Sequence record: PQ478073.1
Direction: 5' to 3' (one strand)
Source: a phage
Length of the DNA stretch: 64,000 nt
A program made the translations under genes and the position numbers. Below are positions 219 to 60,696 of the stretch, piece by piece (the stretch's first letter is position 1; every line of letters starts with the position of its first letter). The notes under the pieces are model-generated. The model did not search any database, had not been told where the DNA came from, and was given only the letters and a program-made list of their open reading frames with translations.

Positions 219-714
219 TACTAATATCTGGTTAGATAACATAATCAAGACATTAGAATTAATTAAACTTACATTACAAAAAACTACTGATATTGAAATT
301 AATATTAAACAAGAAATATTAAACTATTATCATAGAAACAAATATAGCACTTTTATCTCTAAATTAATTTATGGATTATATGATATTGAAGATATTTGCA
401 TCGGTTACAGTACTGGTATTTGCTTCACTGTTAATGGTTTAAAAAATGATTTAAATTTCAGACTTTCCGATGAAGAGCAAGATTTTCGTAGATTTTGTGA
501 TAATATTATGGATACAGACAAAATTACATTTGTGATTGAATTAAATCAAACATGGTCTACATATGCAGATAAACCATTTGAAATTAATGAAACAGATGTG
601 TTAAACTATATTCGAGTTATGAAAATTCATGATTTGTGTAAAAACGCATTGTTAAGTATTGGAGCTTATAATGAAACATACGACTTGGTTGAAGATAGCA
701 GAAGTAGTTGCTGA
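190..714 (+). CDS. hypothetical protein
   Basis: ATG at 190 with GAGG-like RBS; no recognisable domain. Confidence 0.45.
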   Translation: MKYTHLSIDDTNIWLDNIIKTLELIKLTLQKTTDIEINIKQEILNYYHRNKYSTFISKLIYGLYDIEDICIGYSTGICFTVNGLKNDLNFRLSDEEQDFRRFCDNIMDTDKITFVIELNQTWSTYADKPFEINETDVLNYIRVMKIHDLCKNALLSIGAYNETYDLVEDSRSSC

Positions 715-1150
715 GGAAAGTAAATGTATTTCACAAAAAGTTGGTTGTGTTATTGTTAAAAATAATAGAGTATTGAGTACTGGATACAATGGAACGCCAT
801 CTAAGCAGCCAAACTGTTGTGATGTAAATCAACATTTAGTGAACGATGGTCGTTTTCAAGACTGGGTTGATGATGCAGCAAAACATGAACATCATGAGTG
901 GAGTAATATTCATGAGATCCATGCAGAGATGAACGCTTTACTGTATAGTTCTCCTACTGAACGCCAAGGAGCAACTCTTTACACAACTCTACAACCATGC
1001 TATACTTGTTCTAAGTTAATCGCAGGTAGTGGGATTACCCGTGTAATTTATCACAAAAGTTATCCACGAACACCACCTGAAGCGATTAAAGTACTGGAAG
1101 ATGCTGGGATTATTGTTAACTGCATTTATGACAAGGGTATGAATCAATGA
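671..1150 (+). CDS. cd: dCMP deaminase (cytidine/deoxycytidylate deaminase zinc-binding family)
   Basis: HAEMNAL and PCYTCSKLI zinc-binding motifs; ORF-track start is TTG at 659, ATG at 671 has GGAG RBS. Confidence 0.8.
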   Translation: MKHTTWLKIAEVVAEESKCISQKVGCVIVKNNRVLSTGYNGTPSKQPNCCDVNQHLVNDGRFQDWVDDAAKHEHHEWSNIHEIHAEMNALLYSSPTERQGATLYTTLQPCYTCSKLIAGSGITRVIYHKSYPRTPPEAIKVLEDAGIIVNCIYDKGMNQ

Positions 1151-3871: not shown

Positions 3872-4624
3872 ATGATATCAGAAAAATTTATAAGTAATGA
3901 AGGTAAAAAAAGATTACTGATTATATCTGGTGCAGGACTTTCTGTTGAAAGTGGTATGGAACCTTTTCGATTTGATGATGGTTTGTGGGATACATTTAAA
4001 ATCAATGATGTATGTAACATTGCTAGTTTAACTACGAAATATCACGTTGTTCATTCCTTCTATAATACATTACGTGTAAAATTGGGACAATGCGAACCCA
4101 ATGCAATGCATTATTTTATAAAATCGTTAGAAGATCAATATGGTGATTGCTTCCTTCATATGACTTCTAACATGGATGATCTTTATACTCGTATCGGTGG
4201 TCATGAGCTTAAACTTCATGGAAACTTGTGCGAAGTTATTGAAAATTATAGTATCAATTCCGATGATTATAATGTTATTAACTGCGGATACGAACCATAC
4301 ATACCAAAACATGATGTTTTTGCTAAACCAAATGTAGTAATGATTGGAGAATATCATCGTTATGTTGATGGTATTCGCTTACCAATTTACGAAGAACGAA
4401 ATAATGTGTTGAAATCTCTTAATGAAAATGATACAGTTATTGTAATTGGTAGTAGCGATACAGTACTAGTATGGTCGAGATTAGCAGCAGCATTACCATG
4501 TTATAGTGTTAATGTTAACATTCGTAAAAATGATAATGATTTTTTGTTTAATGAAAAAGTTATCAAGCCAGCAACCAAAGCAATACCACATCTAGAGACT
4601 ATAATTAAGGAACGTATGAAATGA
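3872..4624 (+). CDS. Sir2 (sirtuin) family NAD-dependent protein
   Basis: ISGAGLSVESGMEPFR, TSNMDDL, LKLHGNL (catalytic His), PNVVMIGE motifs; ATG 3872 with AAGGA RBS. Confidence 0.8.
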   Translation: MISEKFISNEGKKRLLIISGAGLSVESGMEPFRFDDGLWDTFKINDVCNIASLTTKYHVVHSFYNTLRVKLGQCEPNAMHYFIKSLEDQYGDCFLHMTSNMDDLYTRIGGHELKLHGNLCEVIENYSINSDDYNVINCGYEPYIPKHDVFAKPNVVMIGEYHRYVDGIRLPIYEERNNVLKSLNENDTVIVIGSSDTVLVWSRLAAALPCYSVNVNIRKNDNDFLFNEKVIKPATKAIPHLETIIKERMK

Positions 4625-5172
4625 GTGTTAAAGAAGTTCCCTTTGGTGAATATGGCTCACGTGCAAATTTTGTATTTTGTTATTTCTTTGCAAGAAAATG
4701 TAACCCTTACAAAAACTATGAGTTGAATGATATACCAGAAGTAAATTTAGTTTTACTACAATTACGATGGGATGGTCTTCTTGGTGGATGTGGTGGAACC
4801 GTAGAAAGTACTGATATCTCACTAGAAGATGCGTTGCGTCGTGAAGTTCAAGAAGAAATGGATTACAATATTTTTGTTTCCCATCTTCGACCACTCAAAA
4901 CTTTTGAAATTTACCCAGGTGCAAACAGTCATAGTTTTAGCTATGAAGTAAGCTATGACGAGTTGAAACACATTAGAGATGGATACACTAATGCTAAACA
5001 TGCGAGTGCTGAAGTTGCTGGTGTAAATTTATGTCATATTTCTCGTTATTCTAAGGGACAAAATCGAGAAGCGGGATATAATAATCTTATGACACAGAAC
5101 TTCATTGGTACAGCAAAACAAGAATTGGAGTATCTGGTTCAAAAAGAAAACTTACTAATTAGTTATCTATAG
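4621..5172 (+). CDS. Nudix-like hydrolase
   Basis: approximate Nudix box GGTVE...LRREVQEEM; ATGA coupling to Sir2 gene. Confidence 0.5.
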   Translation: MSVKEVPFGEYGSRANFVFCYFFARKCNPYKNYELNDIPEVNLVLLQLRWDGLLGGCGGTVESTDISLEDALRREVQEEMDYNIFVSHLRPLKTFEIYPGANSHSFSYEVSYDELKHIRDGYTNAKHASAEVAGVNLCHISRYSKGQNREAGYNNLMTQNFIGTAKQELEYLVQKENLLISYL

Positions 5173-5181
5173 GAGTTTAAC

Positions 5182-5502
5182 ATGTCTTACGCAATGTTTT
5201 TGGATGATATTCGTGATGCAAATCTATATTATCCAAACCAAGATATGGTGGTATGTCGTGACTTTAAAAGTGCATGTGAATATGTTATTGAAAATGGAAT
5301 TCCAGCATTTGTATCATTCGACCATGACTTGGGTGATGTGAGCGAAGACGAAAAGACTGGATATTCTTTTGCTAAGTTTCTTATTGATTATATGTTTGAT
5401 AATAATATTAAAGAACCGTTTGAGTACTTTGTTCACAGTAGTAATCCTGTTGGTAAAATTAATATTGAAACATACTTAAACAATGGATTTAACGCATTAT
5501 GA
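5182..5502 (+). CDS. small receiver-like (REC-like) domain protein, function unknown
   Basis: MFLDDIRD ... SFDHDLG acidic-pocket-like motifs; AGGAG RBS. Confidence 0.4.
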   Translation: MSYAMFLDDIRDANLYYPNQDMVVCRDFKSACEYVIENGIPAFVSFDHDLGDVSEDEKTGYSFAKFLIDYMFDNNIKEPFEYFVHSSNPVGKINIETYLNNGFNAL

Positions 5503-5801
5503 TTCAAACACACATCAAAAGTCTTATTTGTACTGTTCTGTTAGGTGCAGGAGTTCTTTGGTTCGGACAGTATCACGAGAACACTAAGCGTACCAACATT
5601 CACTACAATACCGCAGAAGTTGTTAGTTTAGGACAATGTAGCGAGTCCAAATGTTCATTCATGTATAAAACCCAAAGTGGTGAAGTACGTAATGGACTAT
5701 CAAGAGAACCAGTTTCAATTGGTCAACTTGTTTACCAGGAGTGCTGGGAAGAAAAGGTTCGAGGTTCACGTTGCTATGTTGAATACGAACCAAATATGTA
5801 A
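5499..5801 (+). CDS. hypothetical protein with N-terminal signal/TM segment
   Basis: ATGA-coupled ORF, hydrophobic N-terminus. Confidence 0.45.
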   Translation: MIQTHIKSLICTVLLGAGVLWFGQYHENTKRTNIHYNTAEVVSLGQCSESKCSFMYKTQSGEVRNGLSREPVSIGQLVYQECWEEKVRGSRCYVEYEPNM

Positions 5802-5861
5802 TAATCCGAGTCAATAACATTAGTCGAGTACAAGGATGTACTCATAACTCAAGGATGTTTT

Positions 5862-7301
5862 ATGAAAAAATATACAATTGACACAAACGTACTACTATCT
5901 GACCCTAATGCATCTATTGCTTTTGATGGTGCTGCAATCATTCTACCATTTACAGTACTGGAAGAATTAGATTCGATTAAGAGTCGTAATGTAGATGTTT
6001 CACGCGATGCTCGTGTTGCTATTCGTAACATTGAAGCAATTATTGCAGATGCATCACATGACGAGATTAGTAGTACTGGTGTTAATATTGCTGATGTTCA
6101 TACCAATATGAATCCTGATAGCAAATTGTTTGTTATTACAAACGAAGAAGCTGAGGCACTAATTCGTACTAAAGGTACAGAAGAGAAAGTTCAAACCCTT
6201 CTCAAAAGTACTGTACCTGATGATAAAATCATTCTGGTAGCTTTAGCAACAGAATCAGTACTGGTAACTCGTGATATCAACATGCGTATCAAAGCACTAA
6301 GTTATGGTGTCGAGGTACAAGATTATCGCCATGATATTGTTATTGGTGATAGTGATTTGATTCACATTGGTCAACACCATCTGGAAATCAATTTTTGGGA
6401 AGTATACAGCAACTTAACCAATACTAATATTCAATCCGAACAAGTTGGTCGTCGTTTGTATCATTACATTTCTAAAAGCTTGATTGAACATCTGCTTCCA
6501 CAAAATCTATGCATCGGTGATTATCTATATGATGATGCTGACGTATTATTTGTGTACGAAGGACAATCAGCAATTGAGGAAGATGATGGAACACTAACAC
6601 CAGAAGATATTTTGGTATTCCAAGACATTGGACAATCAGTGGCTTTACGTGCTAAAGTATGGGATATTAAAGCAAAGAATATCCAACAAGCACTCGCCAT
6701 CAACAGTATTCTCGATCCTGATGTACATCTAACAGTACTACTAGGTTCTGCTGGTACTGGTAAAACACTAATTACAATTGCTACTGCATTAGAATTAGTA
6801 CTGGAAAAACGTAAATACGACCGAATCATCTTCTCTAAAACTCAAGACTCACAGTTTGAAGATATTGGTTTCTTGCCAGGTTCAGAAGCAGAAAAAGTGA
6901 TTCCATTCTGTGGAGCCGCGATTGATGCGTTAGAGTTTCTTCATAAAGATGATGCAAACCCACAAGGTAGTATTGAAGAGATTATGAAACGTAATGTTAT
7001 TCAATTTAAAGCACTAAACTTTGTACGTGGACGTTCATTCACCAACACTATTCTAGTAGTTGATGAATTCCAAAACATTACACCTGCACAAGCAAAAACC
7101 ATCTTGACACGAGCAGGGTTAAACTGTAAAGTAGTAATTATGGGTAACTTGAGTCAGATTGACAGTAAGTTTATTAGTCCTGTTAACAGTGGTTTGACAT
7201 ATGTAACTGAGAAGTTTAAAGACTGGGCAGGTTGTCGTGTCATCGAACTAGAAGGTGTTGTTCGTTCACCACTGGCTGAATTTGCTGAAGAAAATATGTA
7301 A
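5862..7301 (+). CDS. phoH: PhoH-like ATPase with N-terminal PIN domain
   Basis: PIN-like N-terminus (IDTNVLL), Walker A GSAGTGKT, Walker B LVVDEFQN. Confidence 0.85.
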   Translation: MKKYTIDTNVLLSDPNASIAFDGAAIILPFTVLEELDSIKSRNVDVSRDARVAIRNIEAIIADASHDEISSTGVNIADVHTNMNPDSKLFVITNEEAEALIRTKGTEEKVQTLLKSTVPDDKIILVALATESVLVTRDINMRIKALSYGVEVQDYRHDIVIGDSDLIHIGQHHLEINFWEVYSNLTNTNIQSEQVGRRLYHYISKSLIEHLLPQNLCIGDYLYDDADVLFVYEGQSAIEEDDGTLTPEDILVFQDIGQSVALRAKVWDIKAKNIQQALAINSILDPDVHLTVLLGSAGTGKTLITIATALELVLEKRKYDRIIFSKTQDSQFEDIGFLPGSEAEKVIPFCGAAIDALEFLHKDDANPQGSIEEIMKRNVIQFKALNFVRGRSFTNTILVVDEFQNITPAQAKTILTRAGLNCKVVIMGNLSQIDSKFISPVNSGLTYVTEKFKDWAGCRVIELEGVVRSPLAEFAEENM

Positions 7302-7309
7302 TATTGTAT

Positions 7310-7338
7310 GGGACATTATGTCCCATACATGATATAAT
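7310..7338 (+). promoter_or_regulatory. early-type sigma70 promoter (GGGACA N17 TGaTATAAT) overlapped by 11-bp perfect inverted repeat (7305-7329)
   Basis: consensus hexamers; palindrome TGTATGGGACA tta TGTCCCATACA. Confidence 0.6.
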
Positions 7339-7369
7339 GTTGTTATCATAATACAGAAGGAGATATAAA

Positions 7370-7558
7370 ATGGCTAAACAACCTAAGAAACAAGAACCAG
7401 TAGCAAAAGTTAAGAAAGAGAAAGTTATTCAATCCAAAGAACAACGTATGTACGAACAACGTAAGAGTGAAACCCTATCCGGTCTACAAGCTCTACGCAA
7501 GCAAGGTGTACTAACTCGTGCACAGTACCGTGAACTAGTAGCTCAGAAAGGTTTTTGA
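7370..7558 (+). CDS. small basic protein
   Basis: AAGGAG RBS, K/R-rich 62 aa. Confidence 0.5.
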   Translation: MAKQPKKQEPVAKVKKEKVIQSKEQRMYEQRKSETLSGLQALRKQGVLTRAQYRELVAQKGF

Positions 7559-7662
7559 TTCATTTGAAGCAATATTGTGGAGTTCTTAATAAATACTTTT
7601 ATAAGAATAATAATACTTTTTATTAAATTAAAAAGAACTCCATGTGTTATTTCAGTTTTTCG

Positions 7663-7688
7663 TCCCTGTCTTTTGGCAGGGATTTTTT
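7663..7688 (+). terminator. intrinsic terminator
   Basis: 8-bp stem, TTTT loop, T6 run. Confidence 0.6.
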
Positions 7689-7784
7689 ATATCTATATCT
7701 TGACAAAAGGAACAAATCATGAGAACATGTATTAAAGGAAGAATGACTTTCCATTAGGTTATTTTAACTTAAAGGAGATTTCAT

Positions 7785-8342
7785 ATGTTTTTTGACCAAA
7801 CATTTACGTTGTATCACGATTCTGGTAAAGTTGAGATTATTGATAATCTGTTAGAGTACATTGCGGAACATGACGGTATAGACCGTTTCCACAGTAAGAT
7901 GAAATTCGATTTAGCTGAATTCAACAAAAAGAATCGTGAAACATTTTGGAAGAACCGTTTCTATTACGAAATGTTTCCAGAAAAGTTTGTGGGTTATTAT
8001 CTTTGTACTGAAAAAGGATTACTTGTATCTCCTGATTTACTTATGGGTGAATACATGATACTCTATAATGAGTACTGGGAACATAAACGTAAAGCTCGTG
8101 ATACGGAATGGCGACATAAGCGTTCGTATATGTACAAACATAACCACTCCCGATACAAGCGTCCTAAGACTCAACAAGAGCGTCGTATGGCTTGTGCAGT
8201 ACTGAAGGATGAGGGGGAACCTGATATACGTGGAAGACGTAAGATGCGTTCATTACCATCGTATTGGGACGATATCAGAACAAGACATAGTACTGGCTGG
8301 AAATACAGTACAAAACGTAAACATCAATACAAAGGGAGCTAA
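7785..8342 (+). CDS. hypothetical protein (basic C-terminus)
   Basis: AAAGGAG RBS; no known motif. Confidence 0.5.
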   Translation: MFFDQTFTLYHDSGKVEIIDNLLEYIAEHDGIDRFHSKMKFDLAEFNKKNRETFWKNRFYYEMFPEKFVGYYLCTEKGLLVSPDLLMGEYMILYNEYWEHKRKARDTEWRHKRSYMYKHNHSRYKRPKTQQERRMACAVLKDEGEPDIRGRRKMRSLPSYWDDIRTRHSTGWKYSTKRKHQYKGS

Positions 8343-8369
8343 TGCTCCCTAATTTTATAGGTGAACTTT

Positions 8370-8699
8370 ATGAACAAAATTGACGTTACTGTAGTGATTG
8401 GTTATATTGAAATTGAACCGTGTGGCATTGATACCTTTATTGACACTCTTAATAAGTATCGTGCTGAATATAACGGTCACATTAGTCTTTCACCAGACAG
8501 TGGTTACGGCGGTTTTCATGGATACAATGTAATTTGGACCAGAGAAGAAACTGACGAAGAATATAATACACGAATTGAAGCTGAATCTAAAAGATGTGAA
8601 GAAATTGAACGTCAAGAAATGAAACACTTAATGAACAAGAAATCATTAAGTACCGAAGAGAAATCTAAACTGCTAAAATACATCAAGGATTACATGTAA
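8370..8699 (+). CDS. hypothetical protein
   Basis: ATG 8370 with AGGTGA RBS. Confidence 0.45.
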   Translation: MNKIDVTVVIGYIEIEPCGIDTFIDTLNKYRAEYNGHISLSPDSGYGGFHGYNVIWTREETDEEYNTRIEAESKRCEEIERQEMKHLMNKKSLSTEEKSKLLKYIKDYM

Positions 8700-9349
8700 T
8701 GAAAAATGTAACTCAAGAAAAGATTCTGTACCTTGCAAAGTACAATGGTGGTTTCAATATCATTAGCCGTGAGTACAGTGGTAATTTGGCTAAGTTGATT
8801 GACAGTTTGTTAGAATTTGATTTCATTAAATGGGAAACTAATGAACTTTGGTACGAATATGCTGGTCAGAAATGGGAAAGTGATTATGATAATGCAATAC
8901 ATTCATACACTATCACCAAAGCAGGTGAAGTTCGATTAGCCATTATGCGTTGTGCATATACTTACAAAAATCATAAAGGTGAAGAAAAACATATTCGCAG
9001 AAATGAAGAGCTATTACTTCTCATGGAAGCAGCAAAAGTTACAATGCATGATTTGTTCCACCACCCACGTTGGTATGAAAATCTAACAAAAGCAGAGTAC
9101 AAAGCTTTACGTTACATTGATGAACAAAACAATACCCCAGTTGTAGTTGATGATGTTTGTGATGGTGAACTAACCATCAAAAACGTATTTGAAAGCACCA
9201 GTACAGAAAGTATTACAGACATTTCTGTACAGATGGCCCTAAAAGCAATGGAACTTTTCAAGACACAATATGAAGGACACAGTGCTGAAGAAGTAGAGCG
9301 TGAGTTCATCACACGCGTACAGATTGCATTGTTCCAATCGAAAAAGTAG
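8699..9349 (+). CDS. hypothetical protein
   Basis: TAATG overlap coupling. Confidence 0.5.
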   Translation: MKNVTQEKILYLAKYNGGFNIISREYSGNLAKLIDSLLEFDFIKWETNELWYEYAGQKWESDYDNAIHSYTITKAGEVRLAIMRCAYTYKNHKGEEKHIRRNEELLLLMEAAKVTMHDLFHHPRWYENLTKAEYKALRYIDEQNNTPVVVDDVCDGELTIKNVFESTSTESITDISVQMALKAMELFKTQYEGHSAEEVEREFITRVQIALFQSKK

Positions 9350-9447
9350 GATGATATGAAATATGAACATCCGTGATGGGTTATCATATAAAGAAGCAGG
9401 TAAAGATGGTGTCAAAGGTGAAGCTGTAGATCTTTGCATTTGTGCAC

Positions 9448-9476
9448 TTGACATGTTCGCTTTGTAATGCGATAAT
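9448..9476 (+). promoter_or_regulatory. sigma70-type promoter (TTGACA N17 GATAAT)
   Basis: consensus -35 and near-consensus -10 upstream of 9567 gene. Confidence 0.5.
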
Positions 9477-9566
9477 ATGAGTTCAGAAGAGATGGAACGT
9501 GAGTTCCTTACTTACATGAATGTTAAACTAGCCAAATGGCGTAAATCAATTCAATAGGTATTTTAA

Positions 9567-10538
9567 ATGAAAACTAAAATTATTTCTGAACAAAAAATTG
9601 GCAATACTACAGTACTGAATCTTGAAGTTCAAGGTCTTAGTAATGTTCGTTCTCTTACGGTTTGTACTCAGAGAGATGATTTGACTGATTTCTATAGCTC
9701 AGAATACATGTCAGAAGAACCTTGGGATATGGGATGGTTGGACGGTAGTAGTTATATCAGTTCTCGTTATAGTTTTGGTTCTCATGAAAATATTGAACAA
9801 GTAAAAAATGAGTATATTAAACTCAGTGATACTATTGAAATGGAAGAAGTCGATTGTGTAGAACTTTTCATTTTTGAATTCGATGCCGGAAATGGTAATT
9901 CATTACTAGTAAGTAATATTGAAGAACATTTAATGTATCATGAAATTGAAGATGTAGATTTTGAAAGTATTAAAAATGTTGTTCATATGGTTGGTGGTAG
10001 TATTACGGATGATTCAGATATCGGTCATAATATTTCACTGTGCTTAATTTCTCATCCAAAAACTCGTGGTTTTAAAGTTCCACAAGATGAAACTTACGTG
10101 TTTGAAACTGCTGATGAAGGAATTTATCCTTGGAATGATTATGTAGAATACTATGGTCATTTCTGTTCTGATATAAAAGAACTGAAAAAAGGCGAACAAT
10201 ATTTTGATATGTTTCGTGCTGCACAGCGTTTAGTACTGAATAATACTGAACTATTTCCTGATCGCGGCGAAGAAAATATGATTGATATTATCTTCAAGAA
10301 CTATGATTATGTACAGAACATTCCTGATAATGTACATTTGGAATATGTTCACGGTTCTTCAAACAAATTCTATAATATTGAATTGAATGCTCCAGTGTGT
10401 GAAGTAATTATTGAGTACGGTTCTATTGGTAAAACCAGTACTACAGATGGTGAAGAATTCGAAACTATTGAAGAAGCACGTAAGTTCTTCGAGAAGAAAG
10501 TAATTTCTAAAATTAAAAGTGGTTATAGCCCAAAATGA
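9567..10538 (+). CDS. protein with C-terminal WGR-like domain
   Basis: C-terminus SNKFYNIEL...EYGSIGKT...FETIEEARKFF...KSGYSP resembles WGR domain. Confidence 0.45.
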   Translation: MKTKIISEQKIGNTTVLNLEVQGLSNVRSLTVCTQRDDLTDFYSSEYMSEEPWDMGWLDGSSYISSRYSFGSHENIEQVKNEYIKLSDTIEMEEVDCVELFIFEFDAGNGNSLLVSNIEEHLMYHEIEDVDFESIKNVVHMVGGSITDDSDIGHNISLCLISHPKTRGFKVPQDETYVFETADEGIYPWNDYVEYYGHFCSDIKELKKGEQYFDMFRAAQRLVLNNTELFPDRGEENMIDIIFKNYDYVQNIPDNVHLEYVHGSSNKFYNIELNAPVCEVIIEYGSIGKTSTTDGEEFETIEEARKFFEKKVISKIKSGYSPK

Positions 10539-10915
10539 AAATCACACGCTTTGGTAAAACCTTTGAACTAAACATTGTTTCTGTTTATAAAAAAGGAAAA
10601 TCAGGAAAGTTAAGCACTGATAATATTAGATTTGTTATTAGTGATTATTATGATATGTTTAATCAGGCATTTGAAGAAAATAAATTTGGTTTGATTTTAT
10701 GTAAACCACAAAAACCGGAATTAGGTATTTTGGATTTAAGAACTGATAAGTCTGATTTTATTGGTAATCTTGATATTATTGAATTTAAAGTTGATATATC
10801 AAAAGAACATTTTAGAGTTAAAAACTATAATTATTACAAAGTTGATATTAATTCTATCGAAGTACAAAACGTACTTGATGAACTTATCAGTAATAATTCG
10901 TGTTTTACTAAATGA
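10535..10915 (+). CDS. hypothetical protein
   Basis: ATGA-coupled ORF. Confidence 0.45.
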   Translation: MKITRFGKTFELNIVSVYKKGKSGKLSTDNIRFVISDYYDMFNQAFEENKFGLILCKPQKPELGILDLRTDKSDFIGNLDIIEFKVDISKEHFRVKNYNYYKVDINSIEVQNVLDELISNNSCFTK

Positions 10916-11160
10916 GAAAAAATATCATGAAAAATATATTCATTACATTAACAATATTTGTATCCATTATTCTCTGTGGTTGTGCTCCTAAAGTTGATGA
11001 GATGGATGCTGAAATCATCCGTCAAGGTTTAACAAAACTAAATCATCAAGGAACACTATATGCATGTCATACTATGCGTCATGGGCAAGATCTTAATCTC
11101 ATGTGCAGGAAGATTGTGAATCGCAAACGTCTTAATACTGTTCCGAAGGATGCACAATGA
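10912..11160 (+). CDS. putative lipoprotein
   Basis: signal peptide with lipobox-like ILCGC. Confidence 0.4.
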   Translation: MRKNIMKNIFITLTIFVSIILCGCAPKVDEMDAEIIRQGLTKLNHQGTLYACHTMRHGQDLNLMCRKIVNRKRLNTVPKDAQ

Positions 11161-11327
11161 AAGAAGTAATTGGCTACAAATGTAAAAATTGTGGCAAAGA
11201 TAAGGGTAAGCATTCAATACAAGGAATGGCTTGTCCAAATCCAGGACGTGGTAATTTCAGAGGGTTCAGTACTGAAAAGTCTTACGAACCGGATCATACC
11301 AAACCTGTAATGGGTTATAAATTATGA
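11157..11327 (+). CDS. small zinc-ribbon-like protein (not in ORF track, under 60 aa)
   Basis: 56-aa ORF with CKNCG...CPNPG; ATGA overlaps at both ends. Confidence 0.3.
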   Translation: MKEVIGYKCKNCGKDKGKHSIQGMACPNPGRGNFRGFSTEKSYEPDHTKPVMGYKL

Positions 11328-11683
11328 GTGATTATGTAGCATTTCTTCATCGCTTTGGAGAAGCTAAAGAAAAACATATTATCCGTATGCCATTATATGG
11401 TGAAAAAGACTGGTACAAAAGTACTATCAGTGTAGGTGCATTTCGTGACCGTGAAGCTGGATTCTTTCTGGGTAAGCAACATGAACGAGAGGTACTTTGC
11501 TCACTTTGGCGTTTAGATGAATGGGATAGTGAGAACGTAAGAACTGCTGAATCAATGATGGCTATTGTTGGTATTGCGAACTATCAGCACCCATATGATC
11601 TATTACCTACATTTGAACATGCTTCTTTGTTTGACTTTTACAAAGCAGTAGGGTATGATTATAAAAAGAAACGTTACGTTTAA
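11324..11683 (+). CDS. hypothetical protein
   Basis: ATG-initiated ORF, coupled. Confidence 0.5.
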   Translation: MSDYVAFLHRFGEAKEKHIIRMPLYGEKDWYKSTISVGAFRDREAGFFLGKQHEREVLCSLWRLDEWDSENVRTAESMMAIVGIANYQHPYDLLPTFEHASLFDFYKAVGYDYKKKRYV

Positions 11684-11729
11684 CATCAGTACTGCCACTA
11701 TGGACGGTACTTTTTAATTGGAGATTACT

Positions 11730-12344
11730 ATGACTACATCGGAAAAGTACTGGTGGATTTTGGGTCATCCTAAATTCATAAACAAAGATATGGTTCCAGC
11801 TAGGATTGATATAGAACCTCATGATGTGTGTCCAATGACAAATCGAATTGAAGATTTCAAAGCATTGAATACAAAGACTCAATTTTGGGTAGAATTTCTT
11901 TCACCAATGTATATTGAGCAAGACGACGAATGGGTACAAGCACATGATTATCAATTGGATTGTGGTGGTGATACGTATGAAGAGGCCATTGATGAATTAT
12001 ACAAAAATGTGCTAAGAACATATGGTGATTACACCCAACAAGAAGCGGACGATGAATTTAATAAGATCCATGTAGCTATTTCGACATCATCAATTTATAA
12101 TCCCACTAAAACAGTTTGGGAGGAACGACACAGTTGGTGTTCATGTGTAATCGATGAAGAAACCAAAGAAAAAATCATCGATGACATAAAAAATTTAAAA
12201 AATACAATCCAAGCCTTGCGTGCATTCATAAAGTCTTGTACAATAGAAGAACAGCAAGAGGCAAAGATACATTTGGAGAGTGAAGAATGTAAACTTTGGG
12301 TTCTAGAAAAATCACTTGAAAAGGGTATAGACTTAGACTTATGA
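11730..12344 (+). CDS. hypothetical protein
   Basis: ORF-track start is TTG 11718; ATG 11730 has GGAG RBS. Confidence 0.5.
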   Translation: MTTSEKYWWILGHPKFINKDMVPARIDIEPHDVCPMTNRIEDFKALNTKTQFWVEFLSPMYIEQDDEWVQAHDYQLDCGGDTYEEAIDELYKNVLRTYGDYTQQEADDEFNKIHVAISTSSIYNPTKTVWEERHSWCSCVIDEETKEKIIDDIKNLKNTIQALRAFIKSCTIEEQQEAKIHLESEECKLWVLEKSLEKGIDLDL

Positions 12345-12709
12345 ATAGTAAATTGGAGAAACTTGTTGAAGAATTACGCCGGATGCCACCTATTGAGCAA
12401 GTAGGGAACTACAAGCGGTATCGTGTGATTGCTCGTGCACTGGATAAAAAAGGGCGAGTACTGGCAACACGCACAAATTCTTATACACAGACACATCCAG
12501 TACAGAAAGGTTTTGCAATTCGTGCTGGACGTCCACAAGGTGAATTTCTCCATGCTGAAATTTCTTGCTTATTAGCTGCACGTGCTGATGTTCATACTTT
12601 ACTGATTGCACGGATAAGTAAAGATGGTATTCCTGTACCTGCTAAACCATGTGAAATTTGCACATTAGCAATTATGGAATACGGGGTTAAGGAAATTATC
12701 CACACATGA
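12341..12709 (+). CDS. cytidine/deoxycytidylate deaminase-family zinc-binding protein
   Basis: HAEISCLL and PCEICTLAI motifs (H-A-E / PCxxC). Confidence 0.5.
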   Translation: MNSKLEKLVEELRRMPPIEQVGNYKRYRVIARALDKKGRVLATRTNSYTQTHPVQKGFAIRAGRPQGEFLHAEISCLLAARADVHTLLIARISKDGIPVPAKPCEICTLAIMEYGVKEIIHT

Positions 12710-13839: not shown

Positions 13840-13977
13840 CTATTTGTGCAAATAAAAAGCAATGTGACTTTTCCTTGATATAGGTCAAGAGAAATAACCT
13901 GTTCTGACGCTATAATGTTGTCTGGTGATATTAAATATCTTCACCCCCAGATGATTTCAAAATACAAGGAATGTACA

Positions 13978-15783
13978 ATGCAATTAGATAAATTATATAC
14001 CGATGTAACAAATTTCCTAAATCAGAGTAATACTGATCTTACTAATGAAAACGCTAATAAAGATGCAAAATGCGTCAATACACATAGAGATTTACTAGCA
14101 GGTATTCTATCTAAGCATTATTCACAAGATGTTATTCCCACCGAGTTAATGCAATGGCATAATGATGGATATGGTCATATTCATGATTTAGATTACTATA
14201 TTAGCCCATTGACCAATTGTTGCTTGGTTAACTATCCTGATATGCTTAAAAACGGCTTCACTATTGGTTGTGCTAAAATTGAAGAACCAAAAAGTTTCAG
14301 TGTAGCTTGCACAGTACTGACACAAATTGTCCAAGCTGTTGCCAGTTCCCAATATGGTGGTCAATCTTTGGCTCACATTGATGTCGGATTAGAACCTTAC
14401 GTTCAAAAGTCATGGGATAAGCTGTTAGAAAAACAAAAGAAATATAATCTAAGTGATGAATTCATTGAAGAAGAACTACGTAAAGAAGTGTATGATGGCT
14501 GCCAAACATTACTTTACCAAACTAATTCAATGATTAGTACTAATGGTCAAGCTGCATTTATTTCTCTTAGTTTAGGTCTTAACACTTCTAAATTTGGTAA
14601 ATTAATCACTGAACAGTACTTAAAAGTCCATGAGAATGGTTTAGGTAAAGATAAGATTACTCCAGTGTTTCCTAAAGTAATTTTCTTTTTACAAGATGGT
14701 ATAAACATGAATACCAACGATAGTAATTATGACCTTAAACAGTTAGCTATGCGTTGTGCATCAAAACGAATCTACCCTGACTTTGTTTCAGTACCATTAA
14801 ATCACAAAGTGACTGGAAGTAGTAGTACTGCTGTAACACCGATGGGCTGTCGTTCATTCTTAGGAAAATGGGAAGATTCAAATGGAAATGAACAATACAA
14901 CGGTCGTTTCAATTTAGGTGTGGTTTCTATCAATTTACCTCTAATTGCTCTTGAGAGTACTTCTGACGGAGAGTTTTTTGATAAGATAGACGAGCATATG
15001 AATATTGCATATCGTGCTCAGATGAACCGCGTAGAGCGTTTAAAAGGCACTAAAGCAAAGCAAAATCCAATTTTGTTCATGGAAGGTGCATTAGCACGTT
15101 TAGGTGCAGAAGAAACCATTGACAAGCTATTTTACAATGGTTATGCTAGTATTAGTATTGGTTATGTTGGACTTGTTGAATGTTCAGAAATCCTCACTGG
15201 TTCTATCAGTAAGGAGTTTTGTATGTCAGTACTGAATTATATGAAAGTAAAATGCGATGAGTTCAAAAAAGAGAGTAATATAGCTTTTAGTCTATATGGA
15301 ACGCCAGCAGAGTCACTTTGTTATAAATTTGCACGTTGTATTGAAGCAAAATATCCTTCAGTACTAAAACGTGATTACATCACAAATTCCTTCCATCAAC
15401 CAGTATGGGTAGAAAGTTCTCCATTTGATAAATGGAGTTATGAAGAAGGCTTTGCTTACCTAAGTAACGGTGGAAACATCAGTTATGTTGAATCTCCAAA
15501 CTTAGCAAACAACATTCAAGCACTTGAAACATTAGTTAACTATGCTTACACGAAGATACCATATTTTGGTATTAACCAACCAGTTGACCATTGTTATGAA
15601 TGTGGCTTCCAGGGTGAGTTCAGTGTAGATAAACATGGTTTCCACTGTCCGGTATGTGATAATCGTAATGAGAAGACAATCTCAGTGATTCGTCGTGTTT
15701 CTGGTTACTTGGGTAATCCTTCTTCGCGTGGATTCAATAAAGGCAAACAACAAGAGTGTTGTGAGCGTATTCAGCACAAATAA
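13978..15783 (+). CDS. nrdD: anaerobic ribonucleoside-triphosphate reductase (class III RNR)
   Basis: strong similarity to recalled T4 NrdD (LTNENANKD N-terminus, glycyl-radical RVSGYLG, C-terminal Cys cluster); start set to ATG 13978 by homology and AAGGA RBS. Confidence 0.9.
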   Translation: MQLDKLYTDVTNFLNQSNTDLTNENANKDAKCVNTHRDLLAGILSKHYSQDVIPTELMQWHNDGYGHIHDLDYYISPLTNCCLVNYPDMLKNGFTIGCAKIEEPKSFSVACTVLTQIVQAVASSQYGGQSLAHIDVGLEPYVQKSWDKLLEKQKKYNLSDEFIEEELRKEVYDGCQTLLYQTNSMISTNGQAAFISLSLGLNTSKFGKLITEQYLKVHENGLGKDKITPVFPKVIFFLQDGINMNTNDSNYDLKQLAMRCASKRIYPDFVSVPLNHKVTGSSSTAVTPMGCRSFLGKWEDSNGNEQYNGRFNLGVVSINLPLIALESTSDGEFFDKIDEHMNIAYRAQMNRVERLKGTKAKQNPILFMEGALARLGAEETIDKLFYNGYASISIGYVGLVECSEILTGSISKEFCMSVLNYMKVKCDEFKKESNIAFSLYGTPAESLCYKFARCIEAKYPSVLKRDYITNSFHQPVWVESSPFDKWSYEEGFAYLSNGGNISYVESPNLANNIQALETLVNYAYTKIPYFGINQPVDHCYECGFQGEFSVDKHGFHCPVCDNRNEKTISVIRRVSGYLGNPSSRGFNKGKQQECCERIQHK

Positions 15784-15791
15784 GGTAAATT

Positions 15792-16124
15792 ATGGATTTA
15801 AAGCCAATTGTGGTTAACAAATACAAAGAACCGTATGATGTGTATATTGGACGTGGGTCTAAATGGGGAAACCCATTTACCCATATTAAAGATAAACAAA
15901 CTAAAGCCGAATTCATTGTTAGTACAAGAGAAGAATCAATTGAAAAATTCAGAGAATACATTATTGAACGTATTTCTTGTGGAGAAGTTAAGATTGATGA
16001 ATTACTTGAACTCGCAGGGAAACGCCTTGGTTGTTTCTGTAAACCCAAATCATGTCACGGCGATGTTCTTGTCGAAATAGTGAGTGCAATATTAGATGAA
16101 TTACCAGACGATAATCAAGGATGA
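15792..16124 (+). CDS. conserved hypothetical protein (GSKWGNPF motif)
   Basis: AAGGTA RBS; sits between nrdD and nrdG. Confidence 0.5.
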   Translation: MDLKPIVVNKYKEPYDVYIGRGSKWGNPFTHIKDKQTKAEFIVSTREESIEKFREYIIERISCGEVKIDELLELAGKRLGCFCKPKSCHGDVLVEIVSAILDELPDDNQG

Positions 16125-22690: not shown

Positions 22691-22718
22691 AGCTCGTCTA
22701 TTGACGGGCTTTTCTTTT
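22691..22718 (+). terminator. intrinsic terminator (overlaps -35 of next promoter)
   Basis: 8-bp stem, T-rich tail. Confidence 0.45.
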
Positions 22719-32132: not shown

Positions 32133-32160
32133 GGGACATTATATGTTCCAATGATATAAT
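32133..32160 (+). promoter_or_regulatory. early-type sigma70 promoter (GGGACA N16 TGaTATAAT)
   Basis: same family as 7310, 43232, 62243. Confidence 0.6.
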
Positions 32161-57295: not shown

Positions 57296-58276
57296 ATGGC
57301 TAAAAAAATTAATGAAGCACAAGTTAAAATCGATATCGCAGGTTTAGAATCTGATGATTTGGAAACACTATCACGTATGTTAGCACTTGCTGGTCAAGCT
57401 GAACGTCAAGACCCAGTTGTTGCTGCTCCAGTACCATCAATGGGGTCTATGACTCCATCTCTTCCACCTATTGCTCCACTAGATCTAGATTCTATTGGTG
57501 CTGAAGAAGAAATTGGTGGAATTGAAACTTCAGTTGAAGACCCACTAGCAGCGGCAGTTGATGATCTTTCCGCTGATGTTGGTGATTTTGGTGCTGACTC
57601 AGATGAAGTTAGTATGGATGCTGAATTTTCAGAACCAGGTGTAGAAGGTGAAGAAGATTTTTCTCTTGACCTTAGTGGTCAACCTCAACTAGAATCAGTT
57701 GAAGAAGACGATGAGGAAGAAGAAGAAATTATTGAAGAAGAATTCGATTTTAGTCGTATGCTATCCCTTGCTGGTATTAACGAAGAAGAAGACGAAGATT
57801 TTTCCGTAGAGGGTAATCCTGCTACCGATAAAGAAATGAAAGATACCCAATTTCTACCAGATCTAAGTATCTCTGAAGATGAAGAACCATCTAACAGTAC
57901 TGATTATGGTCCATATGAAACAGAAGCTGATGCCGTTCGTGATGGTCAACTAAAGACTAATGGTGTTGAAGGTGACCATTTTGTTGTAATTGCAAAAGGC
58001 AATCAATTTTATTGGAGACGTGTTGTAGATGAAGATCTTGACAATCGTCCAGAACCTGAGTATTATGATAATGAAGGGAACGAAAATCGTGTTCATAAAT
58101 TTGAACCAAAATTCCCAGGCACTGCATTAGGAGATAACCCACTAAATGTTAATGAAAGTGAAGAAGATGATTCACCTGAAGGTAACATTGACTTGGAAGA
58201 TGATTCTGATGAAGAAGTAGAAGATATTTTTGAAAGTCTCCAAGAAAAATACAAGAAATTTTTAGGAGACAAATAA
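57296..58276 (+). CDS. highly acidic protein (scaffold/internal-protein-like or DNA mimic)
   Basis: D/E-rich, repeated SRML(A/S)LAG motif. Confidence 0.5.
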   Translation: MAKKINEAQVKIDIAGLESDDLETLSRMLALAGQAERQDPVVAAPVPSMGSMTPSLPPIAPLDLDSIGAEEEIGGIETSVEDPLAAAVDDLSADVGDFGADSDEVSMDAEFSEPGVEGEEDFSLDLSGQPQLESVEEDDEEEEEIIEEEFDFSRMLSLAGINEEEDEDFSVEGNPATDKEMKDTQFLPDLSISEDEEPSNSTDYGPYETEADAVRDGQLKTNGVEGDHFVVIAKGNQFYWRRVVDEDLDNRPEPEYYDNEGNENRVHKFEPKFPGTALGDNPLNVNESEEDDSPEGNIDLEDDSDEEVEDIFESLQEKYKKFLGDK

Positions 58277-58277
58277 T

Positions 58278-58673
58278 ATGCAATATAATTATCGTGAACT
58301 AGTTGAAGCGTTAGACGAAATTACCGGAAGAGATGAAGACGAAAGTTTTTCAGTTGAAGTTGAATCCGATGTTGTAGCAGTTGATGTTCTTAAGGATATT
58401 ACCAAATGTCTTATTAACATTGTTGATAAGATTAAATCTGGTGAAGACCAAAAAGAAATTGTAGATAAACTACAAAAAGCCTGTGACATTTTGTCTGATA
58501 TTCGATATAATGATGAAAGTACTGAAGTTGCTGATGATGAAGTGTTGGAAGCCATTGCAGGTTGTTTTGGTACTGAAGGTATGGGACCAACAATTGACAA
58601 AGAAGGTGTACAACACTATAATGAACCTGGTGCACCATCTTATGCTGCACGTCAAGGTTTTGTTGGAGACTAA
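58278..58673 (+). CDS. acidic hypothetical protein
   Basis: ATG-initiated. Confidence 0.45.
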   Translation: MQYNYRELVEALDEITGRDEDESFSVEVESDVVAVDVLKDITKCLINIVDKIKSGEDQKEIVDKLQKACDILSDIRYNDESTEVADDEVLEAIAGCFGTEGMGPTIDKEGVQHYNEPGAPSYAARQGFVGD

Positions 58674-58676
58674 TAT

Positions 58677-59057
58677 ATGTTTCCAGAACCATCACATAAC
58701 AGTACTGAATATCAAAATAATGTACTTTCCAAAGTTAGGGAAGTACATGAATCAGATTCAGAAATAACAGACCGTATGCTTCTGATGTCAATTTTTGAAA
58801 ATTTCAGAACTGGCGGTGGTTTACGTCTTAGTAAGTTTGGATATGGAATTTGTAAAGAAAATAATCTTTATGAATTTACAAAAATCCCCTTGCAAAGAGA
58901 ATTTAAAAGTTCTATAATGTTTACATCACTTGACAGAATATGTACTTCACCTTACTATGTTGAAGGTCAGTACATATATCTGACAGATGCAATGATAATA
59001 ACTGAATTAACATTGTGTTGTGATGATTTTAAACAGTTATTTTCTATTCATATGTAA
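58677..59057 (+). CDS. hypothetical protein
   Basis: ATG-initiated. Confidence 0.45.
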   Translation: MFPEPSHNSTEYQNNVLSKVREVHESDSEITDRMLLMSIFENFRTGGGLRLSKFGYGICKENNLYEFTKIPLQREFKSSIMFTSLDRICTSPYYVEGQYIYLTDAMIITELTLCCDDFKQLFSIHM

Positions 59058-59080
59058 GAAAAATGAGTTAAAAATAAATG

Positions 59081-59108
59081 TTGACAAGATAGAATGATGT
59101 GATATAAT
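59081..59108 (+). promoter_or_regulatory. sigma70 promoter P1 (TTGACA N16 TGaTATAAT), -10 flanked by inverted repeat
   Basis: consensus hexamers; tandem with P2. Confidence 0.6.
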
Positions 59109-59173
59109 AAGCATCAGACATAAAGTTTTCAAGCGTCACAAGATGTGAGTTTGAAAAAAAGAAAAAAAAGTGA

Positions 59174-59201
59174 TTGACAAGTTGAAACGATGTGATATAA
59201 T
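59174..59201 (+). promoter_or_regulatory. sigma70 promoter P2 (TTGACA N16 TGaTATAAT), -10 inside 7-bp inverted repeat GATGTGA/TCACATC
   Basis: consensus hexamers. Confidence 0.6.
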
Positions 59202-59370: not shown

Positions 59371-60696
59371 ATGACTACTCAAAACGATATCCTGAACGTT
59401 AAACTGACTCCAAAGAAAGCTAAAGAAGCAATGGCACTAGCTGACATGATTCAAGATAGCCTGATGATTTGGGGTAGCCCAGGTATCGGTAAGTCTGCAA
59501 TCGCTCGTCAATACGCTGATGAAAATTACCCACTGCGTAAAGATAACGTAGCTAAAATCGAGTTCATGAAACAACAAATCGAAGCTGACCCTGAAAATGC
59601 TGATCAGCTACGCCGTGAACTGGTTGCATTTGAAGCAAAACTAATCGACCAAGATACTAACTTTATCGATTTCCGTTTGTCTCAAATCGAACCAAGTGAC
59701 CTTCGCGGTATCCCTGTACCAGAGAAGCTTTTCCGTAAAACTGACGGTTCTCTTCTCAAAGAATCTGAGCTTGCTGAAGCAAAAGATTATGTGGCTGAAA
59801 CTGCTGTAGTATGGGCTGCACCTAAAGTACTGAAATTGTCCGAAGATTGGAAAGGTGTTATTCTGTTTGACGAAATTAACTCTGCAATGCCTATTGTTCA
59901 GGCAGCGTCTTATCAGCTAATCCTCGACCGTTGTGTTGGTGAGATGAAGCTACCTAAGACTGCACTGATTCTTGCAGCAGGTAACCGTGAAACTGATGGC
60001 GGTGTAACGTTCTCTCTTGCTACACCACTGCGTGACCGTATGACTCACATTGAGATGATTCCTTATCATCAAGATTGGATTAACGATTATGCGATTGCAA
60101 AACGTTTGAACCCAGCAACTGTTGCGTTCATCAACAACACTGGTTCTAAGTACTTTAACACACTTAGCCCACAAGATCCTTCTCACAGCGGTGGTACTTC
60201 TCCACGTTCATGGGAAGCAGTAGCACGCTACGAAGATCTCAAGAAAAATAAGACAATTGATAAAGAAGTGTTCCGTGCAATGATTGCTGGTCGTGTTGGT
60301 GAAGGTGTTGCGACTGAATACATTGAGTACGTTGAGAACGTTGCTAAACTACCAGATACTATGTCTATTCTGTCTGGTGAAATCAAAGAAATCGACGCAA
60401 CGCTGGATATTTCTGCGAACTACTTTATCACTCTGAACTTGGTTTATAAAATTATCGACCTGTTCAATGAGAAGCAAGAACAACGTCTACCAGTGGAAGA
60501 ATGGGGTAAACTGTGTAACAACTTCATCACCTTCCTAGACCATAACTTCTCTGCAACTCAAGCAGAACTGGCAGTACTGGCAATTCGTACCATCACGCTT
60601 CATAAGGTTGCGATTTCCATTAAAGATGTACCAGCGTTTAAAGATTTCATCGCTAAGTACTCTGAACTTGTACGTAAAGCACGCTCTCTTGGCTAA
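59371..60696 (+). CDS. MoxR-type AAA+ ATPase (CobS-like)
   Basis: Walker A GSPGIGKS, Walker B ILFDEIN, AAGN...LRDR sensor/arginine region; strongly biased codon usage. Confidence 0.75.
   Translation: MTTQNDILNVKLTPKKAKEAMALADMIQDSLMIWGSPGIGKSAIARQYADENYPLRKDNVAKIEFMKQQIEADPENADQLRRELVAFEAKLIDQDTNFIDFRLSQIEPSDLRGIPVPEKLFRKTDGSLLKESELAEAKDYVAETAVVWAAPKVLKLSEDWKGVILFDEINSAMPIVQAASYQLILDRCVGEMKLPKTALILAAGNRETDGGVTFSLATPLRDRMTHIEMIPYHQDWINDYAIAKRLNPATVAFINNTGSKYFNTLSPQDPSHSGGTSPRSWEAVARYEDLKKNKTIDKEVFRAMIAGRVGEGVATEYIEYVENVAKLPDTMSILSGEIKEIDATLDISANYFITLNLVYKIIDLFNEKQEQRLPVEEWGKLCNNFITFLDHNFSATQAELAVLAIRTITLHKVAISIKDVPAFKDFIAKYSELVRKARSLG

What the first reader, a model, noticed from the sequence alone, without database searches (positions are those of the whole stretch)
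9567..10538. WGR-domain protein in the early region
The C-terminal about 75 residues match the WGR signature (KFY.I.L...EYG.IG......F.T.EEA...F.KK...K...GY) known from PARP and MolR proteins, which bind nucleic acid. Its unique N-terminal domain and the ADP-ribose-related genes elsewhere make it a candidate sensor or adaptor.
Basis: partly seen in the sequence, partly recalled or inferred. Interest (0 to 1): 0.4.

Follow-up and report, generated by a model that had tools for sequence, protein, structure and literature searches.

The report
Jumbo-phage WGR protein, orphan N-domain
This is a real but dispensable jumbo-phage gene, already labelled "WGR domain protein" in public records, that joins a conserved PARP-like WGR module (lacking its key arginine) to a variable domain of unknown fold; its function is unknown and it shows no link to the phage's NAD/ADP-ribose genes.

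The parts
9363..10969 (+). Accessory segment that is present or absent among Asteriusvirus genomes. In phage 121Q it is replaced by 216 bp encoding a 59-aa signal-peptide-like protein.
   Evidence: blastn of the window against 121Q: homology stops at 9362 and resumes at 10970. 121Q annotation. 17 of 36 related phage records carry the WGR protein.
9363..9560 (+). Pseudogenised 3' end (64 codons, with an in-frame TAA at 9465-9467) of a divergent copy of the upstream gene 8699-9349. It is a recombination scar showing that the WGR gene was imported together with the tail of its usual upstream neighbour.
   Evidence: tblastn: 84% identity, E = 1.8e-36 to the C-terminus of the 297-aa gene that directly precedes the WGR gene in L004, and 70% to the L005 ortholog. 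GenBank annotates 9363-9467 as a 34-aa hypothetical CDS.
9448..9476 (+). Sigma70-type promoter-like site, TTGACA-17 nt-(TG)GATAAT, 11 of 12 matches, 91 nt upstream of the start codon.
   Evidence: It is the best-scoring site in 7200-12000. It is one of only two non-coding-region + strand sites scoring at least 11 of 12 in the first 29 kb of the window; the other is at 22701. This is a consensus match only, and its function is untested.
9567..10538 (+). CDS of the 323-aa WGR-domain protein (stop codon 10536-10538).
   Evidence: 27 full-length homolog clusters of 314-331 aa.
9567..10316 (+). Orphan N-terminal domain, residues 1-250. Residues 1 to about 170 form an antiparallel-sheet alpha/beta part, and residues 175-250 form a helical part. 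It is acidic (pI 4.35, net charge -29). The invariant core is G60, G71, N117, G144, D148, D149 and P164, with D54, Y63, G110, E120, K167, K170 and N226 nearly invariant.
10317..10535 (+). WGR module, residues 251-323 (Pfam match 256-322, nt 10332-10532). The triad is Y284-G285-S286 (nt 10416-10424) instead of W-G-R. The helix at 301-317 is the most conserved part of the family.
10535..10915 (+). Downstream 126-aa ORF whose start overlaps the WGR stop codon (ATGA). It travels in the same segment in this phage but is not an obligate partner.
   Evidence: It has no Pfam, PHROG or PADLOC hit. It is present in 12 phage records. Six WGR-carrying phages lack it, and WPEC5 has it without the WGR gene. 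It is absent next to the WGR gene in L003, L004, L005 and L010.

Best explanation
This is a non-essential cytoplasmic two-module protein, restricted to the Rak2/Asteriusvirus-like jumbo-phage lineage and probably expressed early. The C-terminal WGR is the constant module. It most likely acts as a generic anchor to a conserved ligand, probably the nucleic-acid backbone. It keeps the Lys/Tyr/aromatic contacts seen in PARP2 WGR-DNA complexes but has lost the arginine and the C-terminal tyrosine that give PARPs their nick and 5'-phosphate specificity and their allosteric activation. The N-terminal 250 residues are the variable module: an acidic orphan alpha/beta-plus-helical domain with a small invariant polar cluster (N117, E120, D148, D149, K167, K170). 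It most likely binds, or acts on, a partner that differs between hosts or phage lineages. On this reading the protein is a dispensable host-interaction adaptor (takeover or counter-defence), not a component of an ADP-ribosylation pathway. Shown: the domain identities, the orphan status of the N-domain, the accessory and mosaic distribution, the separability of the two modules, purifying selection on the WGR, and the loss of the arginine. Inferred: nucleic-acid anchoring, partner recognition by the N-domain, early expression, and a host-interaction role.
Against: There is no direct functional evidence of any kind, and no paper studies this protein. The block-wise divergence of the N-domain also has high dS (1.19), so it reflects allele replacement by recombination, not demonstrated positive selection. 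The breakpoint at the WGR boundary could simply reflect the WGR DNA acting as a homology patch. The same phage pair shows another mosaic dip elsewhere, so mosaicism is not specific to this gene. The PARP2-contact residues that are retained are also the general Pfam signature residues, so they may be structural. The WGR module is net negative (-3) and the whole protein has net charge -32, which argues against strong nucleic-acid binding. There are no PADLOC or PHROG hits, and no anti-defence library was available. The invariant acidic/polar cluster fits an enzyme as well as it fits a binding site.
Confidence: 0.35

Rival explanations
1. DNA-end or nick-processing accessory enzyme. The WGR targets the protein to breaks or ends in replicating or injected phage DNA, as it does in PARPs and WGR-appended ligases. 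The N-domain is a new metal-dependent enzyme (nuclease, phosphoesterase or transferase) that uses the invariant D148-D149 pair together with N117, E120, K167 and K170.
For: An invariant acidic/polar constellation is preserved from the close clade to the distant clade while everything around it varies. N117 and D148/D149 sit at the C-terminal ends of beta-strands, a typical active-site position. WGR recurs with DNA-break enzymes. The genomic neighbourhood is nucleotide and DNA metabolism: PIN-PhoH, dCMP deaminase, NrdD/NrdG.
Confidence: 0.22
2. Protein-binding decoy or inhibitor with no nucleic-acid role. Here the degenerate WGR is a protein-protein interaction or scaffold module, as PARP1 R591 and the WGR mediate inter-domain contacts. 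The acidic protein sequesters or mimics a host factor, for example a DNA-binding protein or a host WGR-containing protein.
For: The whole family is acidic (pI 4.3-4.6, net charge -24 to -33), and the WGR module is net negative. The DNA-contacting arginine is lost. The full-length model is compact and confident (pTM 0.89). The gene is accessory, phage-only and probably early. WGR-like proteins occur beside retron type XIII systems (PMC7736814).
Against: The acidity is not exceptional in this phage: rank 10 of 77 ORFs, about 1.2 SD below the mean. The basic face of the WGR helix (K310, K311, K315, K317) is the most conserved part of the family. No target is known.
Confidence: 0.18
3. One reading: a sensor or adaptor of an ADP-ribose/NAD pathway that works with the phage Sir2 and NUDIX genes, analogous to the WGR in PARPs.
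For: Sir2-like (3872-4624) and Nudt16-like NUDIX (4621-5172) genes, plus a second NUDIX, are in the same window. WGR is best known from PARPs. One of 15 N-domains gave a sub-threshold hit to SidE_mART (E = 0.055).
Confidence: 0.05
4. A decaying or neutral passenger gene with no current function in this phage.
For: The gene is absent from about half of close relatives with no obvious consequence. It sits next to a pseudogene scar.
Against: The ORF is intact in all 17 Escherichia phage records at 93-98% identity. dN/dS is 0.14-0.53 for the N-domain and 0.03-0.31 for the WGR across pairs. Synteny is kept from Escherichia to Erwinia phages at 39% identity. A distant clade keeps the same architecture.
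Confidence: 0.05

Closest known systems
WGR domain of PARP1/PARP2/PARP3 (PF05406; PDB 4dqy, 2eoc, PARP2-DNA complexes of PMC6294510)
   Different: The motif is Y-G-[S/A/G/P], not W-G-R. The arginine (PARP2 R153, PARP1 R591) is never present. The C-terminal extension carrying PARP2 Y201, which reads the 5'-phosphate, is missing. There is no helical regulatory domain and no ART catalytic domain. The WGR is C-terminal to its partner domain rather than N-terminal to it.
Bacteroides fragilis Q64V53 (PDB 2ra8), an uncharacterised bacterial WGR protein
   Different: Only 68 residues of the 350-residue 2ra8 chain align. In 2ra8 the WGR is N-terminal and is followed by an unrelated domain. Position 3 of the motif is still basic (Lys). 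Its function is unknown too.
Stand-alone phage WGR proteins (BFVD: Agrobacterium jumbo phage Atu_ph07 A0A2L0UZX9, uncultured Caudovirales A0A6J5S7J5 and others) and the L010 79-aa derivative
   Same: They share the WGR fold (Foldseek prob 1.00, TM-score 0.48-0.59 normalised to the target). The L010 protein is a direct deletion derivative, 62% identical to this window's WGR module and 82-86% identical at the DNA level to the L005 WGR region.
   Different: They lack the N-domain entirely. None has a known function.
WGR-appended ATP-dependent DNA ligases (bacterial NT-OB_2-WGR group; ASFV and pithovirus ligase N-terminal domains)
   Different: There is no nucleotidyltransferase or OB domain here.
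MolR/YehI-type WGR + DUF4132 (HEAT/ARM-like) proteins and the retron type XIII 'WGR-like + HEAT/ARM' partner
   Same: These are non-PARP prokaryotic WGR proteins in which the WGR is joined to a non-catalytic module. At least one is associated with a defence system (PMC7736814). The MolR/YehI architecture is recalled from memory and was not tested.
   Different: There is no DUF4132 or HEAT-repeat signal. The domain order is reversed. This protein is found only in phages.

Membership tests
WGR domain (Pfam PF05406) | Profile-HMM score above the curated gathering threshold | tested here: met
   42.2 bits against a cutoff of 22, E = 8.9e-11, residues 256-322, profile positions 3-74 of 79. All 27 homolog clusters and the distant clade also carry PF05406.
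WGR domain (Pfam PF05406) | Fold: antiparallel beta-sheet packed against one long C-terminal helix | tested here: met
WGR domain (Pfam PF05406) | The eponymous Trp-Gly-Arg triad | tested here: not met
   The triad is Y-G-[S/A/G/P] in the family: 13 of 14 have Tyr and 1 has Trp, Gly is invariant, and Arg occurs in 0 of 14. This is a divergent member. The triad is not required by the Pfam model.
DNA-break-sensing WGR as in PARP2 | The full set of DNA contacts: N127, K130, Y132, W151, R153, Q159, K179, K183, Y201 | tested here: inconclusive
   Five of the nine are retained (K130, Y132, W151 as an aromatic, K179, K183). R153 is lost, N127 and Q159 are variable, and Y201 is absent because the protein ends before that position (residue roles from PMC6294510).
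DNA-break-sensing WGR as in PARP2 | Actual binding to nicked or 5'-phosphorylated DNA | not testable with these tools
   This needs EMSA, fluorescence polarisation or SPR with purified protein.
PARP / diphtheria-toxin-like ADP-ribosyltransferases | ART catalytic domain (H-Y-E) and PARP regulatory helical domain | tested here: not met
MolR/YehI-type WGR + DUF4132 | C-terminal DUF4132 / HEAT-like repeat region | tested here: not met
   There is no such Pfam hit at E of 1 or below. The protein is only 323 aa, and the WGR is at its C-terminus.
WGR-appended ATP-dependent DNA ligase | Nucleotidyltransferase and OB domains | tested here: not met
Known anti-phage defence proteins (PADLOC-DB) | Match to any defence-system protein model | tested here: not met
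   There were 0 families at E of 0.01 or below for the WGR protein and for its downstream neighbour.
Known phage anti-defence proteins | Homology to a characterised anti-defence family | not testable with these tools
   No anti-defence library is offered. PHROGs gave no family at all for this protein.
Virion structural protein | Detection in the particle proteome | not testable with these tools
   The phAPEC6 ortholog is gp336c. The paper that lists 62 virion proteins (PMC7247149) does not mention gp336 in its held text, and its Table 1 is not held.

The most novel reading that the evidence does not exclude
The N-terminal 250 residues may be a truly new fold that serves as an exchangeable specificity or effector cassette on a constant, arginine-less WGR anchor. 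Together they would make a jumbo-phage counter-defence or host-takeover adaptor. It would either sit on nucleic acid (phage DNA ends or nicks, or a nucleic-acid immune signal) or mimic a host WGR sensor, and it would neutralise a host factor that varies between strains. That would give the first function for a non-PARP WGR domain and for the many stand-alone phage WGR proteins.
Probability: 0.15. Interest if true: 0.6.

Novelty: new variant of a known kind. Interest (0 to 1): 0.32.

Why it matters
Outside eukaryotic PARPs the WGR domain has no demonstrated function, although it is widespread in bacteria and recurs in phages, often as a tiny stand-alone protein. This family offers a tractable case. 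There are natural isolates with the gene (PBECO4, phAPEC6, G17, Sharanji) and without it (121Q, JP4) in the same E. coli phage genus. There is a natural WGR-only derivative. There are also natural N-domain allele swaps on an identical WGR. A comparison of host range or efficiency of plating across these phages could show what a non-PARP WGR does. If instead the protein turns out to be a minor DNA-metabolism accessory, the result is of local interest only.

Tried and rejected
3. There is no paralog in the window. tblastn found nothing below E = 0.1.
4. The downstream 126-aa ORF is not an obligate partner. Its distribution is separable from the WGR gene.
5. The small lipoprotein-like gene 10912-11160 neighbours the WGR gene in several phages. 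Its ortholog (121Q gene 486) lies in the flank that 121Q shares with the window at 98% identity, without the WGR gene. So it is not linked.
6. The functional link to Sir2/NUDIX is rejected because the genes are not co-inherited.
7. The DNA-mimic idea from acidity is weakened. The protein ranks only 10th of 77 ORFs by charge per residue.
8. P0031, a 3455-aa protein that matched residues 179-214 six times, is an FN3-repeat protein, so the match is spurious.
9. The SidE_mART hit occurred in 1 of 15 members at E = 0.055, which is chance level.
10. The pattern-based scans of IMG/VR and of the GTDB species genomes found no relative. This supports a narrow distribution, but the method depends on the patterns chosen.
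11. Literature searches found no functional study. One search was swamped by 'WGR = weight gain rate' papers.
12. The virion-proteome check failed because the table is not held.
13. The neighbours of the distant clade are not paralogs.

Full report
**What the window is.** The segment 8000-12500 is 97-98% identical to Asteriusvirus jumbo coliphages of about 350-380 kb, including G17, Sharanji, UB, BF17, PBECO4 and phAPEC6. Nearly all long ORFs lie on the + strand.

**Checking the observation.** An ORF runs at exactly 9567..10538 (+) and encodes 323 aa.
- Pfam WGR (PF05406) matches residues 256-322 at 42.2 bits, against a gathering cutoff of 22, with E = 8.9e-11.
- A profile of the family finds the WGR of Bacteroides protein 2ra8 (E = 1.6e-6) and PARP3 (2eoc) among PDB sequences.
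- An AlphaFold2 model built on 27 homologs is confident (pLDDT 90, pTM 0.89).

It is not new, however. GenBank records of PBECO4, phAPEC6, BF17, UB, slurp01, Sharanji, UE-S1 and fEgEco12 already call this gene a WGR domain protein.

**The N-terminal domain.** Residues 1-250 have no Pfam, PHROG, NCBIfam or PADLOC match.
- A profile of the N-domain alone finds nothing among PDB sequences.
- A search of 1.84 billion representative proteins gives only eight hits. Seven are members of this family, and the eighth is a spurious FN3-repeat protein.
- Three distant relatives at 17-19% identity have the same N-domain-plus-WGR architecture.
- A wider profile adds only more proteins of the same kind.
- BFVD matches only the WGR part, and AFDB50 was unavailable.
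- The domain is not a cryptic WGR duplicate and has no paralog in the window.

Invariant from the close clade to the distant clade are G60, G71, N117, G144, D148, D149 and P164. D54, Y63, G110, E120, K167 and K170 are nearly invariant. N117 and the D148-D149 pair lie at the ends of beta-strands. That pattern fits a pocket or an active site, but nothing identifies which.

**How PARP-like is the WGR?** Obaji et al. (PMC6294510) list the PARP2 WGR-DNA contacts. I aligned PARP2 to the family. The PARP2 sequence came from memory, but all ten named residues fell on the correct letters.
- Retained: K130 maps to K267, Y132 to Y269, W151 to Y284, K179 to K311 and K183 to K315.
- Lost or altered: R153 is S/A/G/P in all 14 sequences. 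Its R153A mutant is essentially inactive and forms no stable DNA complex. N127 and Q159 are variable. The protein ends before the position of Y201, which reads the 5'-phosphate.
- Charge: the WGR module is net -3. The whole protein has pI 4.5 and net charge -32, as does the whole family. This is only rank 10 of 77 ORFs in the window.

Generic backbone binding therefore remains plausible. PARP-type recognition of nicks and 5'-phosphates, and PARP-type allosteric signalling, are not supported.

**Distribution and context.**
- The protein is present in 17 of 36 related phage records and in Erwinia phage Hallingskeid at 39% identity.
- Metagenomes add 27 clusters. All sit in the same syntenic slot of Rak2-like jumbo phages, between PIN-PhoH and dCMP deaminase/NrdD.
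- No relative was found in IMG/VR or in 185,579 GTDB species genomes, using a pattern-limited method.
- Compared with 121Q, window 9363-10969 is replaced by 216 bp that encode a 59-aa signal-peptide-like protein.
- The left end of this segment, 9363-9560, is a pseudogenised 3' end of a divergent copy of the upstream gene. It is 84% identical to the C-terminus of the L004 ortholog and carries an in-frame stop. The WGR gene therefore came in by recombination, together with the tail of its usual upstream neighbour.
- Inside that scar lies the best sigma70-like site of the region, TTGACA-17-TG-GATAAT, 91 nt before the ATG.
- Sigma70-like sites are about 2-fold enriched on the coding strand: 62 on the + strand, 27 on the - strand and about 30 in shuffles. 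'Early' expression is therefore plausible but untested.
- The downstream 126-aa ORF overlaps the WGR stop codon, but its distribution is separable from the WGR gene.

**The ADP-ribose idea.** Sir2 (3872-4624), a Nudt16-like NUDIX (4621-5172), cREC_REC and PIN-PhoH form a conserved cluster upstream. 121Q keeps the whole cluster and lacks the WGR gene. L010 keeps the cluster, but its WGR gene has lost the N-domain. No ART, PARP or macro domain was found in the protein, and none is annotated in the about 50 kb of fEgEco12 examined, which corresponds to roughly the first 50 kb of the window. I rate this link as unsupported.

**Modular evolution.**
- Phage contig L005 and Hallingskeid (L003) are 90-98% identical in their flanks. 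Identity falls to 57-73% from the first codon of the gene to the domain boundary, then returns to 95% over the WGR.
- For this pair, dS is 1.19 for the N-domain and 0.20 for the WGR, and dN is 0.37 against 0.006. This indicates allele replacement, not merely fast evolution.
- Family-wide, 8 protein pairs have WGR at least 93% identical with N-domain at most 70% identical, and no pair shows the mirror-image extreme, although milder reverse discordance exists. The WGR helix is the most conserved stretch of the family.
- In L010 a clean 709-bp deletion destroys the original ATG and leaves a 79-aa WGR-only ORF that starts at an internal Met, in the same slot. Against the WGR modules of full-length genes its dN/dS is 0.09-0.13 at dS 0.5-0.7.
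- Stand-alone WGR proteins also occur in other phages.

Two caveats apply. The conserved WGR DNA may simply act as a homology patch for recombination. The same phage pair also shows another mosaic dip elsewhere.

**Interpretation.** The best-supported picture has three parts.
- A constant WGR module acts as an anchor. Its ligand is probably the nucleic-acid backbone, and possibly a conserved protein.
- A variable, acidic orphan N-domain with a small invariant polar site recognises or acts on a partner.
- The gene itself is dispensable, exchangeable by recombination and probably early-expressed.

That profile is typical of host-interaction or counter-defence genes, but there is no direct evidence, and I give it about 0.35. 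The rivals are:
- a new DNA-end-processing enzyme targeted by the WGR (0.22);
- a protein decoy with no nucleic-acid role (0.18);
- a neutral passenger gene (0.05), which the intact ORFs and the purifying selection argue against.

No paper in the library studies this protein.

**Verdict.** The domain call is correct and already public. The ADP-ribose rationale is unsupported. The added value of this analysis is the orphan N-domain, the arginine-less WGR and the modular evolution. Together with natural isolates that carry or lack the gene, these make the family a reasonable entry point to the unknown function of non-PARP WGR domains. Interest is moderate to low (0.32). I class it as a new variant of a known kind.

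Noticed in passing
window 9363-9560: This stretch is a pseudogenised 3' end of a divergent copy of the upstream gene (84% aa identity to the L004 ortholog, in-frame TAA at 9465-9467). Several GenBank records annotate its first part (9363-9467) as a 34-aa hypothetical protein, which is probably not a real gene.
   Followed up: yes
window 5055, 7310, 32133, 43232, 62243 (+ strand): There is a recurring promoter-like motif, GGGACA-N16/17-TATAAT. Four of the five copies have a TG extension; the copy at 5055 does not. Three copies lie 20-76 nt upstream of a gene start; the copy at 5055 is inside an ORF and the one at 32133 is 662 nt from the next called start. This may be a phage-specific promoter class distinct from the TTGACA type.
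   Followed up: no
window 3872-7301: A conserved five-gene cluster: Sir2-like, Nudt16-like NUDIX (its start overlaps the Sir2 stop), cREC_REC (cyclic-phosphate-processing receiver domain), a 100-aa ORF, and PIN-PhoH. The same order is seen in L004, L010 and 121Q. It looks like an NAD/nucleotide-signal or RNA-processing module worth its own analysis.
   Followed up: partly
window 57296-58276 and 58594-59201: This is an extremely acidic 326-aa ORF (pI 4.05, net charge -75). It is followed by three perfect 12/12 sigma70 consensus matches (58594, 59081, 59174) ahead of the gene at 59371.
   Followed up: no
window 671-1150 and 12341-12709: There are two separate cytidine/dCMP deaminase-fold genes in one window. 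The first scores 78 bits and also hits MafB19-like and AID/APOBEC-like deaminase models. The second is weaker (29 bits).
   Followed up: no
L005 3054-3353 vs L003: A second sharp mosaic dip (67-77% identity inside flanks of 91-98%) lies within a 207-aa gene of the same two phages. Block-wise allele exchange is therefore common in this lineage and is not unique to the WGR gene.
   Followed up: no
L010 7001-7240 (metagenomic jumbo-phage contig ERR2738550_6342): This is a natural WGR-only derivative (79 aa) created by a 709-bp deletion that also mutates the original ATG to ACG. It was seen on two contigs.
   Followed up: yes
L012 and L007 (contigs from SRR31860670 and SRR33991144): A distant clade of the same N-domain-plus-WGR family (342-354 aa, 17-19% identity in the N-domain) lives in AT-rich (26-31% GC) contigs. 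Its neighbours are different (adenylosuccinate synthetase, a DnaJ-like gene), so it probably belongs to another large-phage lineage.
   Followed up: partly
window 15792-16124: A DUF4326-family gene (named so in the fEgEco12 annotation) is wedged between the anaerobic ribonucleotide reductase NrdD (13915-15783) and its activating protein.
   Followed up: no
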